From a phage, in sequence record PZ049716.1: 18,895 nucleotides of DNA; one strand, given 5' to 3'. Numbering within the stretch: position 1 is the first letter of the stretch; every line of letters starts with the position of its first letter. The notes under the pieces are model-generated. The model saw only the letters and a list, made by a program, of their open reading frames with translations, ran no database searches and had not been told where the DNA came from. This document shows, piece after piece, positions 15,483 through 17,656 of this stretch. A program made the translations under genes and the position numbers.

Positions 15483-15503
15483 GTAATTTTGACGGGGCAA
15501 AAA
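15483..15503 (-). repeat. 21-bp motif copy B (plus-strand gtaattttgacggggcaaaaa)
   Basis: Lies ~30 nt upstream of the protease/scaffold ATG and just downstream of the cassette terminator. Confidence 0.6.
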
Positions 15504-15529
15504 TCTCGCTGGCTGGCGAGGGCATTACG

Positions 15530-15561
15530 GCAGGAAATAAAGCCCGGCGTGAGGCCGGGCT
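15530..15561 (-). terminator. Intrinsic terminator ending the accessory cassette
   Basis: Minus-strand 8-bp GC stem (AGCCCGGC / GCCGGGCT, loop 5 nt) followed by TTATTT. Confidence 0.6.
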
Positions 15562-15569
15562 AGGGAGGG

Positions 15570-15887
15570 TCAGCGCACGCGCAGGGCGTGGTCGGCGGGG
15601 TAGTCCAGCAGGGCCAGGGTGTTGTGCAGGGCTTGATCGGCCAGCTCCTGCACTTTGTAGGCCTGCTGTTCCAGGTCGCCGGCCAGCACGTCCACCAGTT
15701 GGCACAGGTCGCTGCGCGACACATGGTCGAGCATGGCCGGGGTTTCGTCGCCTTCGGCATCCACCGGCAGCGGCACGGCCAGCAGTTGTTTCAGGGCGCT
15801 CAGGGCGCCCATGCGTTCGGCCAGGCGGCGCGCTGCAAAAGCGTTGATGGCCGCCACCTGGTCGGGGCGCAGCTCATGCAGGCTCAT
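15570..15887 (-). CDS. Acidic hypothetical protein (105 aa), no recognisable family; candidate accessory / anti-defence effector
   Basis: ORF track; ATG overlaps the stop of the Bro-N gene (ATGA at 15884-15887); about 16 Asp/Glu against 8 Lys/Arg; followed by a terminator. Confidence 0.5.
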   Translation of the reverse strand: MSLHELRPDQVAAINAFAARRLAERMGALSALKQLLAVPLPVDAEGDETPAMLDHVSRSDLCQLVDVLAGDLEQQAYKVQELADQALHNTLALLDYPADHALRVR

Positions 15888-16597
15888 TGCTCACCATCCT
15901 TGCTGCTCAGCGGCAGCAGGGCGACGGCGGCGGCCTGTTGCAGGTGCCGGCCAATGCGGTCGAGCTGGTCGGCCAGCGGCTGGTTGTGCGCCGAGTTGCA
16001 GAAGCGCTGGGCCAGGCGCTGCTGCTGCTCGATCAGCCGCGCCTGCTCGTTCTCCAGGTGCTTGGCCGCCACGGCGGCCAGCAGCTCGGGGCTGCACTGT
16101 GGGCTGCCGGCGGCGGGGCTGAACTGGTACTTGGCGTGCAGCAGCAGGTTGACCGTGGGTTTGGACAACCCCAGCTGGCGGGCGATATTGGCCTGGCTCC
16201 AGCCGCCCACGAACAACTCCAGCACCCGCCGTTCTATTTCGCGAGTGACCAGCACGCGGCCGCTGGGCGCTTTCGGTGGAGCCATAAGGGCATCGAGGAT
16301 GTCCAGCACCCACTTGCGGAACTCGGCTGCCACCGGCGTGCGGGCGAACATGCCCAGCAGGTGGGCGCCGCGCAGGGAGAATATACGGGTTTGTTGAATA
16401 CCGCCGGCAGTCTGCAGATCGACTAAGGCGGTCATGCCGTCGGTGAACTCCGCAGCATTCTTTTCGTACAGCTTCCAGATAGCGTGATCCGGCCGTGCAT
16501 ACCCCAAGGCACCTCCGATCTGGAGGCCCCTTAGCCAATGCTGGCCATTGCGGTCGATAACGTCGAACTGGGTATCGCGGAAGGTGAGCGCTTTCAT
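15884..16597 (-). CDS. Bro-N domain protein with central helix-turn-helix and C-terminal coiled coil (237 aa); putative regulator / antirepressor
   Basis: ORF track; GGAG Shine-Dalgarno 7 nt before ATG 16597; N-terminus TFRDTQFDVIDRNGQHWLRGLQIGGALGY...EF...GGIQQTRIFSLRGAHLLGMF...AAEFRKWV matches Bro-N; GWSQANIARQLGLSKPTVNLLLH is HTH-like. Confidence 0.6.
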   Translation of the reverse strand: MKALTFRDTQFDVIDRNGQHWLRGLQIGGALGYARPDHAIWKLYEKNAAEFTDGMTALVDLQTAGGIQQTRIFSLRGAHLLGMFARTPVAAEFRKWVLDILDALMAPPKAPSGRVLVTREIERRVLELFVGGWSQANIARQLGLSKPTVNLLLHAKYQFSPAAGSPQCSPELLAAVAAKHLENEQARLIEQQQRLAQRFCNSAHNQPLADQLDRIGRHLQQAAAVALLPLSSKDGEQ

Positions 16598-16605
16598 GGT
16601 GGGAC

Positions 16606-16680
16606 TCCGTAAGGTTCAGTCAATGCCTGATGGATTAGTAGCCCATCAGGTGGTCGGGACTCAACTAGGGCCTTACGGAC
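16606..16680 (-). promoter_or_regulatory. Nested inverted repeats and promoter-like elements immediately upstream of the Bro-N gene
   Basis: Outer inverted repeat ccgtaagg (16607-16614) / ccttacgg (16671-16678); inner perfect palindrome cctgatgg-9 nt-ccatcagg (16626-16650); minus-strand -35 TTGAGT (16659-16664) and -10 TACTAA (16635-16640) with 18-nt spacer; the 3' arm of the outer repeat abuts the Shine-Dalgarno sequence. Confidence 0.45.
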
Positions 16681-16730
16681 CCCTGGCGCTTCTTCCCCCG
16701 AAGGGTGTTGTATCCGCGCTCTCATCCCGA

Positions 16731-16762
16731 CCATAAAAGCAAACGCCAGCCCGAGGGCTGGC
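16731..16762 (-). terminator. Intrinsic terminator inside the G / Bro-N intergenic region
   Basis: Minus-strand GCCAGCCC-TC-GGGCTGGC stem followed by GTTTGCTTTTAT. Confidence 0.5.
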
Positions 16763-16812
16763 GGCAGGCGGCGTGGTCAGTGCCGTGGCTGCCGTAAGGT
16801 TTAGTGCCTAAA

Positions 16813-16841
16813 ACACTAGCCCAGCGTTACCACCTTGGCAA
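16813..16841 (-). promoter_or_regulatory. Sigma-70-like promoter candidate on the minus strand
   Basis: -35 TTGCCA (16836-16841), 17-nt spacer, -10 TAGTGT (16813-16818); lies ~50-70 nt upstream of the terminator at 16731-16762. Confidence 0.3.
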
Positions 16842-16860
16842 CAGCTTTTCCATTTAAGGC

Positions 16861-16960
16861 GTCGCCGAAACGGCGACACCCGGCGCGGATGCCGCCAAAG
16901 GGGTGGTCAAAATGGCGACCCCTTTTGATGACACTACATTCGTCGCCGTTTTGGCGACGA
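16861..16960. promoter_or_regulatory. Array of operator-like palindromes with GGCGAC arms
   Basis: gtcgccg-aaa-cggcgac (16861-16877), half-site ggtcaaaatggcgacc (16905-16920), tcgtcgcc-gtttt-ggcgacga (16940-16960); centre-to-centre spacing ~40 bp. Confidence 0.45.
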
Positions 16961-17167
16961 AACCCCCAAGAAGGAAGCTCGTATTTTCGCCGGTTTTCCC
17001 GGTTTTCCCAGGCTCTGGCCCAAAACTCACTCCAGGCCTGATGCAGAGCCGTGTTTATAAACGCCCAAACAGCCCCGGAAAGGGCCAGAGGCACCCGGAT
17101 ACATACAACGGCAGCCCCCTGGGGGCCTTAAAACGCTTCTACGGGCCTTTGCGGCGGTTTGCGGTTT

Positions 17168-17656
17168 TCAGCCCTGCAAACGGGCCTGCAGGTGATCGCG
17201 GGCGATGGCGATGATCTCCGCTGCGTCATCATCGGAGATACCGAGGAACGGCCGCGCCGGAATGTCGCCCCAGGGGATGGGCGCGCCGCGACGGGTTTTG
17301 CCGAAGGCGCCCTTGAGCGCGCCGAACTGATGCACCGCACCGTATACCCGATCGGTGCCCACCAGCAGGGTGGCGCCTTCGACCTGCGGGAAGATCTGCC
17401 GCACAAGATCGCCACGCCGCTGCAGGATCTTGCCAGGGTTCGGCGACTTGGTTTCCAGGTAGCGCGGGCTGAGTGACTTCCAGGTCTGGCCATCCGGCCC
17501 GCGTTGCGCGCTGAAGCGGTCGCGGGTGCTGTTGACCAGCGCCTCGCCGATGTCCAGCAGCATCGGCCTTGGGTCAGTCAGCTCGGCCAAGGCGCCGCGA
17601 ATAGCCGACAACACGGCGGCGTTGTCGAACTCCAGCTCTACCCGTGCGCCGCTCAC
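17168..17656 (-). CDS. Virion morphogenesis protein, Mu G-like (162 aa)
   Basis: ORF track (GTG start overlapping the upstream stop); LLDIGEALVNSTRDRFSAQRGPDGQTWKSLSPRYLETK...VGTDRVYGAVHQFG matches the Mu gpG signature. Confidence 0.7.
   Translation of the reverse strand: MSGARVELEFDNAAVLSAIRGALAELTDPRPMLLDIGEALVNSTRDRFSAQRGPDGQTWKSLSPRYLETKSPNPGKILQRRGDLVRQIFPQVEGATLLVGTDRVYGAVHQFGALKGAFGKTRRGAPIPWGDIPARPFLGISDDDAAEIIAIARDHLQARLQG

What the first reader, a model, noticed from the sequence alone, without database searches (positions are those of the whole stretch)
16606..16680. 75-nt nested palindrome overlapping the promoter, 5' leader and ribosome-binding site of the Bro-N gene, with a third copy of the arm upstream
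The element TCCGTAAGG occurs as an inverted pair (16607-16614 and 16671-16678) around a perfect 8-bp palindrome (CCTGATGG-9 nt-CCATCAGG). A further direct copy, ccgtaaggtt, lies at 16792-16801, upstream of the internal terminator. As DNA this looks like an operator overlapping the -10 element. As RNA, the outer arms could pair and partly occlude the Shine-Dalgarno sequence, and the distal copy could offer an alternative pairing partner. Either reading implies tight autoregulation, as expected for an anti-defence locus.
Basis: seen in the sequence. Interest (0 to 1): 0.6.

Follow-up and report, generated by a model that had tools for sequence, protein, structure and literature searches.

The report
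C4-like antisense RNA controlling a phage antirepressor
The "nested palindrome" is the RNA-level signature of a known kind of phage switch: a small structured RNA made from the leader of an antirepressor gene carries a loop that base-pairs with that gene's ribosome-binding site, with a decoy copy of the target further upstream. It is a new example, not a new mechanism.

Summary
All three copies of CCGTAAGG and the inner 8-bp palindrome sit where stated, and the 8-mer occurs nowhere else in the window. The gene is on the minus strand.

The distal arm (16679..16671) is the loop of hairpin 2 of a structured small RNA (16732..16652). This RNA matches Rfam sRNA-Xcc1 (50.6 bits, E 3e-8, just under the cut-off of 53). 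The proximal arm (16614..16606) covers the Shine-Dalgarno sequence of a Bro-N antirepressor gene. The third copy lies at the 5' end of a short leader that ends in an intrinsic terminator. The inner palindrome is a hairpin placed directly after the sRNA; its position is conserved but its sequence is not.

In 17 related loci the loop, the ribosome-site target and the upstream copy change together (permutation p <= 5e-5). In most other Bro-N loci the same position holds Rfam C4 antisense RNA preceded by isrK or c4-a1b1.

This is a P1/P7 immI-type module (a1b1, C4-like RNA, a2b2/RBS, ant) built on the sRNA-Xcc1 scaffold, inserted between the Mu G-like and I-like genes of a Mu-like phage. The RNA reading is largely right. 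The operator, promoter-overlap and protein-autoregulation readings are not supported. It is a new member of a known kind, of modest interest.

The parts
16813..16841 (-). Candidate promoter of the module: -35 TTGCCA (16841..16836), 17-nt spacer, -10 TAGTGT (16818..16813)
   Evidence: Positional homologue of the strongly conserved TTGACA-17-TAtaaT-like promoters upstream of the a1b1-like element in all Xcc1-type loci. It is weak by consensus (8 of 12 matches) and was not reported by the promoter scan. Inferred, not shown.
16792..16805 (-). Upstream target copy (a1/b1-like): ACUAAACCUUACGG, at the 5' end of the leader.
   Evidence: D7 (13/14 identical to the RBS-proximal copy). It co-varies with the sRNA loop and with the RBS target in 17 loci (p <= 5e-5). 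Predicted duplex with the sRNA hairpin-2/junction segment is -18.5 kcal/mol.
16733..16793 (-). Rest of the short leader RNA (isrK-like): hairpin 16793..16763, intrinsic terminator stem-loop 16762..16745, U-rich tract 16744..16733
   Evidence: Terminator scan; fold. The inner leader hairpin is kept by compensatory changes in L001. The same layout, with 6-7 U tracts, is seen in most of the related loci. In C4-type loci this position is Rfam isrK, AaHKsRNA82 or c4-a1b1. The window element itself matches none of these models.
16652..16732 (-). Structured small RNA (sRNA-Xcc1 class, C4-like): closing stem 16732..16725 with 16659..16652; hairpin 1 16721..16686 (UUCG loop); hairpin 2 16684..16667; junction 16667..16661; preceded by UAU|GG and followed by ACC
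   Evidence: Rfam RF02221, 50.6 bits (cut-off 53), E 3e-8, full-length match. MFE fold z = -3.95. Own model R1 finds 21 homologues; 97.7% of cells are paired and 16 of 17 pairs show compensatory changes.
16671..16679 (-). b'-like antisense sequence UCCGUAAGG in the apical part of hairpin 2.
   Evidence: (I20). The loop sequence differs in almost every related locus and always matches that locus's own RBS target and upstream copy.
16661..16667 (-). Possible a'-like second antisense site UAGUUGA (junction 3' of hairpin 2)
   Evidence: In L003, L005, L036, L116, L158, L082 and L103 this junction is perfectly complementary to a second site just 5' of b2. In the window the pairing with UUGACUG (16623..16617) is 7 bp with 3 G-U pairs. 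Tentative.
16626..16650 (-). Its 5' arm starts inside the ACC tail.
   Evidence: A hairpin at this position occurs in 17 of 18 loci with unrelated stem sequences, mean z = -2.9. Its loop often repeats the a-site.
16606..16623 (-). Target on the mRNA (a2/b2-like): UUGACUG..CCUUACGGA. b2 (16614..16606) overlaps the SD GGAG (16608..16605).
   Evidence: two-part duplex with the sRNA, -25.8 kcal/mol. In the whole-leader MFE it is paired with b' in cis.
15884..16597 (-). Regulated gene: 237-aa Bro-N domain protein with a central helix-turn-helix, antirepressor type
   Evidence: Pfam Bro-N 1.4e-10 and Sigma70_r4_2 3e-6; PHROG anti-repressor Ant 7e-39.
15570..15887 (-). 105-aa ORF overlapping the Bro-N stop codon (ATGA), probably co-expressed; no family match
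   Evidence: 99-100% identical in L001 and L002.

Best explanation
The 75-nt 'palindrome' is part of an immI-type (phage P1/P7 c4-ant-like) antisense-RNA module on the minus strand.

Proposed sequence of events:
1. A promoter at about 16841..16813 starts a leader whose first nucleotides carry a copy of the target (a1b1-like, 16805..16792).
2. Many transcripts probably stop at the intrinsic terminator (16762..16745), giving a short isrK-like RNA.
3. Read-through transcripts contain a structured about 80-nt RNA (16732..16652, sRNA-Xcc1 class, C4-like: closing stem, two hairpins, RCC tail), followed by a stabilising hairpin (16650..16626).
4. By analogy with C4, the RNA is probably cut out by RNase P at UAU|GG.
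5. The apical sequence of hairpin 2 (UCCGUAAGG) pairs with CCUUACGGA over the Shine-Dalgarno sequence of the Bro-N antirepressor gene. A weaker second contact (UAGUUGA with UUGACUG) may help. Pairing can occur in trans, and on the unprocessed leader also in cis. Either way it blocks translation.
6. The upstream copy gives the small RNA a competing partner: a decoy, or a site that influences termination.

What is shown and what is inferred. The sequence anatomy, the conserved fold, three-way co-variation of loop, RBS target and upstream copy, and positional equivalence with C4/isrK in homologous loci are shown by computation. Transcription start, termination, processing, trans action, repression and the biological role (keeping the antirepressor off in lysogens, with sequence-specific immunity) are inferred from the P1/P7 and Gifsy-1 IsrK precedents.
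For: - Rfam sRNA-Xcc1 hit over the full model at 16732..16644, with the distal arm in hairpin 2.
- Stable fold, z = -3.95.
- 21 homologues with 16 of 17 pairs showing compensatory changes.
- In 17 loci the cognate sRNA/target pairs have longer complementarity (7.4 against 4.9 nt) and stronger predicted duplexes (-20.1 against -12.9 kcal/mol) than non-cognate pairs. Permutation p <= 5e-5 for sRNA-RBS, sRNA-upstream copy and RBS-upstream copy.
- Natural specificity swap: L001 has CCGUUUGG / CCAAACGG x2, whereas the window and L002 have CCGUAAGG / CCUUACGG x2, in otherwise near-identical leaders.
- In homologous Bro-N loci the same position holds Rfam C4 (RF01695) preceded by isrK, AaHKsRNA82 or c4-a1b1. 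L003, L005, L084 and L098 have sRNA-Xcc1 above the cut-off there.
- 59 of 123 non-identical Bro-N loci have a reverse complement of at least 7 nt of the RBS region 55-110 nt upstream, against 2-9 in control windows.
- The C4 and Xcc1 consensus sequences share the 5' UAUGG, a closing stem, a tetraloop hairpin 1, a variable-loop hairpin 2, a junction and an RCC tail.
- APSE GenBank records and PMC7313666 annotate C4 / isrK / a' / b' upstream of BRO-N genes.
- C4 mechanism and RNase P processing at a GGW motif are summarised in PMC5320573. The IsrK short and read-through forms are described in PMC4825925.
Against: - The window RNA scores just below the Rfam cut-off for sRNA-Xcc1 (50.6 against 53). 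It is not detected by the C4, isrK or c4-a1b1 models.
- The candidate promoter is weak (8 of 12 matches) and was missed by the scan, so transcription could instead come from upstream late genes.
- In the MFE fold, CC and GG of the antisense sequence are paired around a GUAA tetraloop, so only 4 nt are fully exposed.
- The second (a') contact is weak in this locus.
- There is no intervening icd-like ORF as in P1.
- No expression data exist for this element.
- The whole-leader MFE favours a cis structure, so trans action is not required by the sequence.
Confidence: 0.75

Rival explanations
1. Purely cis-acting leader structure. The two arms pair within the same mRNA to hide the SD, as a translational attenuator or standby structure. 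No processed trans-acting RNA is made. The upstream copy acts as an intramolecular anti-sequestor.
For: The whole-leader MFE pairs b' with b2 in cis. It also pairs the closing-stem strand GGUCGGGAU with GUCCCACCAU between the SD and the AUG. In Gifsy-1 the read-through isrK-orf45 RNA adopts an inactive cis structure (PMC4825925).
Against: A cis-only switch does not need the conserved closing stem, hairpin 1, UAUGG 5' end and RCC tail, all of which are kept by covariation. The extra SD-AUG complementarity is specific to the window and L002 and absent from L001. L136 has at least two tandem modules with different loop/target sequences, which suggests selection against cross-talk, that is, trans action. 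The C4 precedent acts in trans.
Confidence: 0.13
2. Toxin-antitoxin-like addiction or exclusion module. The same RNA mechanism operates, but its role is to restrain a toxic Bro-N/HTH protein (sRNA as antitoxin) rather than to control lysogenic immunity.
For: sRNA-Xcc1-class RNAs also precede symE in Xanthomonas integron cassettes (10.1101/2025.06.18.660453). They also precede a 114-aa membrane protein in L139 and a KilA-N gene in L103. The module sits in the late region of a Mu-like phage, not next to a repressor gene.
Against: The protein's best family matches are antirepressors. Homologous genes in P1-like, APSE and lambdoid phages are annotated Ant. No toxicity data are available.
Confidence: 0.08
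3. DNA operator: the three repeats are binding sites for a repressor (for example the HTH part of the Bro-N protein) that shuts off a promoter overlapping the palindrome.
For: There are three copies of a 9-14-nt sequence, two direct and one inverted. The protein has an HTH. Co-variation of the repeats could in principle follow a change in protein specificity.
Against: No promoter-like site lies there. The arms are 56 nt apart and sit in an RNA hairpin loop and on the SD in every locus. L001 and L002 proteins are 91% identical, differing mainly in the N-terminal Bro-N half, while all three sites are switched. The secondary contact uses G-U pairs, which are meaningful only in RNA.
Confidence: 0.03
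4. Chance palindrome in GC-rich intergenic DNA.
For: Several other 9-10-nt inverted repeats occur in the same 900 nt.
Against: The 8-mer occurs three times in the whole window, and all three lie within 193 nt. Three-way covariation is seen in 17 loci.
Confidence: 0.01

Closest known systems
c4 antisense RNA / immI operon of phages P1 and P7 (Rfam C4 RF01695 with c4-a1b1 RF03163; Citron & Schuster 1990, cited via PMC5320573 and PMC7313666)
   Same: A small RNA encoded in the leader of the antirepressor operon. It has a closing stem with two hairpins, a 5' end at a GGW motif after UAU, and an RCC tail. A variable loop sequence is complementary to a target over the RBS downstream, and a second copy of the target lies upstream. 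Specificity changes by co-ordinated changes at all sites, as in P1/P7 heteroimmunity. In most homologous Bro-N loci the RNA at this position is C4 itself.
   Different: The Rfam C4 model does not detect the window RNA. The closing stem is 8-9 bp instead of about 17, and hairpin 1 is long with an AUACAA internal loop. The target is the RBS of the Bro-N gene itself, with no icd-like upstream ORF. The a' contact is weak here. The host phage is Mu-like and the module sits in the late region.
sRNA-Xcc1 (Rfam RF02221; Xanthomonas campestris integron-encoded sRNA)
   Same: Best Rfam match, over the full model (50.6 bits, E 3e-8). Relatives L003, L005, L084 and L098 pass the cut-off.
   Different: The window scores 2.4 bits below the cut-off. 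The papers I searched describe sRNA-Xcc1 as a trans-acting, virulence-linked sRNA. Here, and in all related loci, it is a cis-linked antisense regulator of the next gene, with an upstream target copy. None of the sRNA-Xcc1 papers I opened states this link to C4; one search listed 23 papers that mention the name.
IsrK / isrK-orf45-anrP locus of Salmonella prophage Gifsy-1 (Rfam RF01394; PMC4825925)
   Same: A short terminated RNA from the operon promoter carries sequences identical to the downstream target. Read-through gives the mRNA with the structured RNA and an antirepressor gene. The short RNA can compete for pairing.
   Different: The window's upstream element does not match the isrK model. 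Its a1 hairpin is rudimentary. IsrK's demonstrated effect is activation through orf45; nothing has been tested here.
CI RNA with seqA/seqB/seqC of satellite phage P4
   Same: An RNA processed from the leader whose internal sequence pairs with copies located both upstream and downstream on the same transcript (as summarised in PMC4825925).
   Different: P4 CI acts by premature transcription termination rather than RBS occlusion. No sequence or model similarity was tested or seen.
sar RNA / ant of phage P22
   Same: A small RNA blocks the antirepressor RBS (PMC12197685).
   Different: From my own recollection, not: sar is a true antisense transcript from the opposite strand. Here both partners are encoded on the same strand.

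Membership tests
C4 antisense RNA (RF01695) / P1-P7 immI | Match to the Rfam C4 covariance model at or above 45 bits | tested here: not met
   No C4 hit even at E <= 10 in 16400-17400. C4 is found at the equivalent position in many homologous loci.
C4 antisense RNA (RF01695) / P1-P7 immI | Architecture: closing stem enclosing two hairpins, 5' UAU|GGW, 3' RCC tail | tested here: met
   The CC of the tail is invariant in 17 sequences and the preceding UAUGG is largely conserved.
C4 antisense RNA (RF01695) / P1-P7 immI | b' loop complementary to a target overlapping the RBS of the downstream ORF | tested here: met
   9 perfect pairs, with the target overlapping the SD GGAG. Covaries in 17 loci.
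C4 antisense RNA (RF01695) / P1-P7 immI | Second antisense site a' pairing just upstream of b2 | tested here: inconclusive
   Clear in L003, L005, L036, L116, L158, L082 and L103. In the window only 7 bp, with 3 G-U pairs.
C4 antisense RNA (RF01695) / P1-P7 immI | Upstream duplicate of the target (a1/b1) | tested here: met
   16805..16792, 13/14 identical to the RBS copy (D7). Shared words are specific to cognate loci.
C4 antisense RNA (RF01695) / P1-P7 immI | Regulated gene is an antirepressor reached through a small upstream ORF (icd) | tested here: not met
   The gene is Ant-like, but the target is its own RBS. No ORF lies between the sRNA and the ATG.
C4 antisense RNA (RF01695) / P1-P7 immI | Processing from the leader by RNase P; trans repression; heteroimmunity | not testable with these tools
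   Only the sequence prerequisites are present (UAU|GGU, RCC). The precedent is summarised in PMC5320573.
sRNA-Xcc1 (RF02221) | Match to the Rfam model at or above 53 bits | tested here: not met
   50.6 bits, E 3e-8, full length. Relatives at the same position score 60-68 bits. Own model R1 links them all.
sRNA-Xcc1 (RF02221) | Consensus secondary structure kept by compensatory changes | tested here: met
   97.7% of cells paired and 16 of 17 pairs with changes on both sides. No shuffle or slid control comes close. The alignment was fitted to the model, which favours the structure.
isrK (RF01394) / c4-a1b1 (RF03163) | Match to either covariance model | tested here: not met
   No hit at E <= 10; only a weak Esr41 hit (24 bits, E 0.04) at 16817..16735.
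isrK (RF01394) / c4-a1b1 (RF03163) | Short leader RNA carrying the target copy and ending in an intrinsic terminator just upstream of the C4-like RNA | tested here: met
   Terminator at 16763..16744, with the copy at 16805..16792. The same layout is seen in most of the related loci.

The most novel reading that the evidence does not exclude
The whole Rfam sRNA-Xcc1 family may not be a free-standing, virulence-linked trans-acting sRNA. It may instead be a C4-class, cis-linked antisense repressor of the gene immediately downstream (Bro-N or KilA-N antirepressors, SymE, small membrane proteins). On this reading it comes with its own isrK-like decoy/terminator element and a 3' hairpin, and its specificity is reprogrammed by co-ordinated changes at three sites. 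RF02221 would then belong with the C4 clan, and reports on Xanthomonas and Xylella sRNA-Xcc1 homologues would need re-reading in that light.
Probability: 0.65. Interest if true: 0.45.

Novelty: new member of a known kind. Interest (0 to 1): 0.33.

Why it matters
For annotation, the finding turns an unexplained palindrome into a defined regulatory module: promoter, decoy/terminator RNA, antisense RNA, target and gene. It predicts the immunity specificity (CCGUAAGG class) of this Mu-like prophage's antirepressor.

More generally, it shows that the sRNA-Xcc1 scaffold can replace C4 upstream of homologous Bro-N genes. It also provides natural compensatory triple mutants (window/L002 against L001) that could be tested directly. 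The mechanism itself has been known since 1990, so the gain is incremental.

Tried and rejected
- Rfam at curated thresholds found nothing in the window; the sRNA-Xcc1 match appeared only with the E-value scan.
- The promoter scan found no sigma-70-like site in 16300-17400, so the promoter rests on positional homology only.
- blastn against the phage collection found no close DNA relative of the locus, only distant Bro-N genes.
- Exact look-up of the Bro-N protein found no contig, so the source organism stays unknown.
- A MAFFT alignment from the sRNA to the ATG (A2) was too unreliable in the loop and target columns for a positional pseudoknot count. I used a cognate against non-cognate permutation test instead.
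- Chen et al. 2011 (PMC3256417) is not held.
- The first regular expression for terminator U-tracts failed. The rerun did not extract the window or L001 elements, and its 85-nt segments for L082 and L103 ended at a T-run upstream of the terminator seen.
- The operator hypothesis was rejected for the reasons given under rival explanations.
- Small ORFs 16548..16736 (+) and 16594..16734 (-), which overlap the RNA, were set aside on my own judgement as probably spurious. They were not checked in relatives or against protein families.

Full report
**Observation.** The sequence is as described.
- The outer arms are TCCGTAAGG (16606-16614) and CCTTACGGA (16671-16679), a perfect 9-nt inverted pair.
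- The inner palindrome is CCTGATGG (16626-16633), 9 nt, CCATCAGG (16643-16650).
- The third, direct copy is CCGTAAGGTTTAGT (16792-16805), which matches 16607-16620 in 13 of 14 positions.
- A 9-nt inverted repeat is not remarkable in this GC-rich stretch, since one search lists many. However, CCGTAAGG occurs exactly three times in the 18.9-kb window, all within 193 nt. The expected count is 0.33.

**Context.** All genes of the window read on the minus strand.
- The element lies in the 570-nt gap between a Mu G-like virion morphogenesis gene (17168..17656) and a 237-aa Bro-N/HTH protein (15884..16597). The latter matches PHROG 'anti-repressor Ant' at 7e-39.
- A 105-aa ORF follows, overlapping the Bro-N stop codon as ATGA. 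Next comes the Mu I-like protease gene.
- Read on the minus strand, the proximal arm is CCUUACGGA and overlaps the SD GGAG (16608..16605), 8 nt before the AUG.

**What the distal arm is.** An E-value Rfam scan gives a full-length match to sRNA-Xcc1 (RF02221) at 16732..16644: 50.6 bits, cut-off 53, E 3e-8.
- A closing stem (16732..16725 with 16659..16652) encloses hairpin 1, which has a UUCG loop, and hairpin 2.
- The distal arm UCCGUAAGG is the apical part of hairpin 2.
- The RNA folds well on its own, with z = -3.95.
- A covariance model built from seven relatives finds 21 homologues. In these, 97.7% of cells are paired and 16 of 17 pairs carry compensatory changes, far above the shuffled and slid controls. 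The alignment was fitted to the model, which favours the structure.

**Related loci.** Homologues of the Bro-N protein were fetched from viral and genomic collections, 159 loci in all.
- Of 20 loci scanned at Rfam's curated thresholds, 14 have C4 antisense RNA (RF01695) just upstream of the Bro-N gene. Almost all of these are preceded about 100 nt further up by isrK, AaHKsRNA82 or c4-a1b1.
- In L003, L005, L084 and L098 the same position is occupied by sRNA-Xcc1.
- The two consensus sequences share the 5' UAUGG, a closing stem, a tetraloop hairpin 1, a variable-loop hairpin 2, a single-stranded junction and an RCC tail. sRNA-Xcc1 is therefore a positional equivalent of C4 with the same architecture. 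The two models do not cross-detect, so common descent is plausible but not proven.
- Of 123 non-identical Bro-N loci, 59 have a perfect reverse complement of at least 7 nt of the RBS region 55-110 nt upstream. Equal-sized control windows further upstream give 2-9.

**Covariation of the three copies.** In every Xcc1-type locus the hairpin-2 loop is complementary both to the RBS region and to a copy near the start of the leader. The sequence differs from locus to locus.
- Examples: L098 has CUGAUAUG / CAUAUCAG, L084 has CCUUUACG / CGUAAAGG, and L026 has CUCUAAA / UUUAGAG.
- Cognate pairings beat non-cognate ones. The longest complement is 7.4 against 4.9 nt, and the predicted duplex energy is -20.1 against -12.9 kcal/mol. 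Permutation p <= 5e-5 for sRNA-RBS, sRNA-upstream copy and RBS-upstream copy.
- The cleanest case comes from the closest relatives. L002 has the window's sites. L001 has CCGUUUGG in the loop and CCAAACGG at both targets, inside an otherwise nearly identical leader.
- The L001 and L002 Bro-N proteins are 91% identical. The specificity switch is therefore independent of the protein. This argues against a DNA operator read by that protein and for RNA-RNA recognition, as between P1 and P7.

**The inner palindrome.** A hairpin that begins within the RCC tail, directly after the closing stem, is present in 17 of 18 loci. The stem sequences are unrelated, and the mean z is -2.9.
- It is therefore a conserved RNA hairpin, not a protein site.
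- In several loci its loop repeats the a-site. In the window the loop is CUACUAA and the junction is UAGU.
- Its role is not established. It could protect the 3' end, mask the RCC tail, or act as an internal partner for the junction.

**The third copy.** It sits at the very start of the predicted leader and is followed by a hairpin and an intrinsic terminator (16762..16745 plus a U-rich tract).
- Most relatives have the same layout, with a conserved TTGACA-17-TATAAT-like promoter just upstream.
- The window has TTGCCA-17-TAGTGT at the same place, which is weak and was missed by the scan.
- This is the a1b1/IsrK arrangement. In Gifsy-1 the short terminated IsrK acts in trans on the read-through mRNA (PMC4825925).

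**Mechanism.** The best-supported reading is a P1/P7 immI-type circuit.
- The leader-encoded RNA is probably released by RNase P at UAU|GG, by analogy with C4 (Hartmann 1995, as summarised in PMC5320573).
- It pairs through b', and perhaps a', with the SD region of the Bro-N mRNA and blocks translation.
- The predicted two-part duplex is -25.8 kcal/mol, and the duplex with the upstream copy is -18.5 kcal/mol.
- On the unprocessed leader the same pairing is predicted in cis.
- The upstream copy competes for the RNA or couples it to termination.
- Everything beyond the sequence, fold and covariation evidence is inference from precedent.

**Comparison with what is known.** The system is known in kind.
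- C4 and isrK upstream of BRO-N genes, with a' and b' sites, are already annotated in APSE phage records and discussed in PMC7313666.
- New here: the member itself, in a Mu-like phage at the G-I boundary; the use of the sRNA-Xcc1 scaffold; and evidence that this scaffold works like C4.
- The sRNA-Xcc1 papers I opened (one search listed 23 that mention the name) treat it as a virulence-linked trans-acting sRNA, or note only that it lies upstream of symE or an ORF6N gene.

**Verdict.** The RNA interpretation is largely right, but the promoter, operator and autoregulation parts are not. This is a new member of a known kind, with interest of about 0.33.

Noticed in passing
window 16856-16960: Three copies of a palindromic motif GTCGCC-N5-GGCGAC (16861-16877, 16903-16919 with 2 mismatches, 16942-16958). 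They lie in a stretch of about 130 nt that is absent from the otherwise collinear L001 and L002. This may be a small inserted repeat element, or the terminator region of the upstream late operon.
   Followed up: partly
window 15884-16597 vs L001/L002 3001-3730: The Bro-N protein is mosaic. Residues about 41-160 are only 30-70% identical to L001 and L002. By contrast, the last 60 residues, the downstream 105-aa ORF and (for L002) the whole leader are 95-100% identical. This suggests recombination that swapped the Bro-N domain while keeping the RNA module.
   Followed up: partly
window 15570-15887 (-): A 105-aa ORF overlaps the Bro-N stop codon (ATGA). It has no Pfam or PHROG match and is 99-100% conserved in L001 and L002. 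It is probably translationally coupled; its function is unknown.
   Followed up: partly
window 16596-16605 and 16724-16733 (-): The spacer between the SD and the AUG (GUCCCACCAU) is complementary to the 5' strand of the sRNA closing stem (AUGGUCGGGAU). This gives a long alternative cis structure in the whole-leader MFE. It is present in L002 but not in L001.
   Followed up: partly
window 16735-16817 (-): The upstream short leader gives a weak Rfam hit to Esr41, an EHEC sRNA (24.4 bits, E 0.04). This is possibly driven by the terminator. Alternatively, Esr41-like RNAs may be a1b1/IsrK-type elements.
   Followed up: no
L136 1298-1388, 1917-1996, 2869-2959: Two clear Xcc1-type modules in tandem (50 and 48 bits), plus a weak third (25 bits). 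Each lies upstream of a Bro-N reading frame and has a different loop/target sequence. The first reading frame runs without a stop through the second module.
   Followed up: partly
L139 780-873 and L103 4522-4613: Xcc1-type RNAs also precede a 114-aa hydrophobic membrane protein and a KilA-N protein. In the first case the loop is complementary to the start codon region; in the second it is complementary to the RBS. The scaffold is therefore not tied to Bro-N genes.
   Followed up: partly
window 15500-17170: The module occupies the gap between the Mu G-like and I-like genes. From memory, not checked here, this is an operon boundary in Mu. It is also the site where Pseudomonas Mu-like phages carry anti-CRISPR loci.
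   Followed up: no
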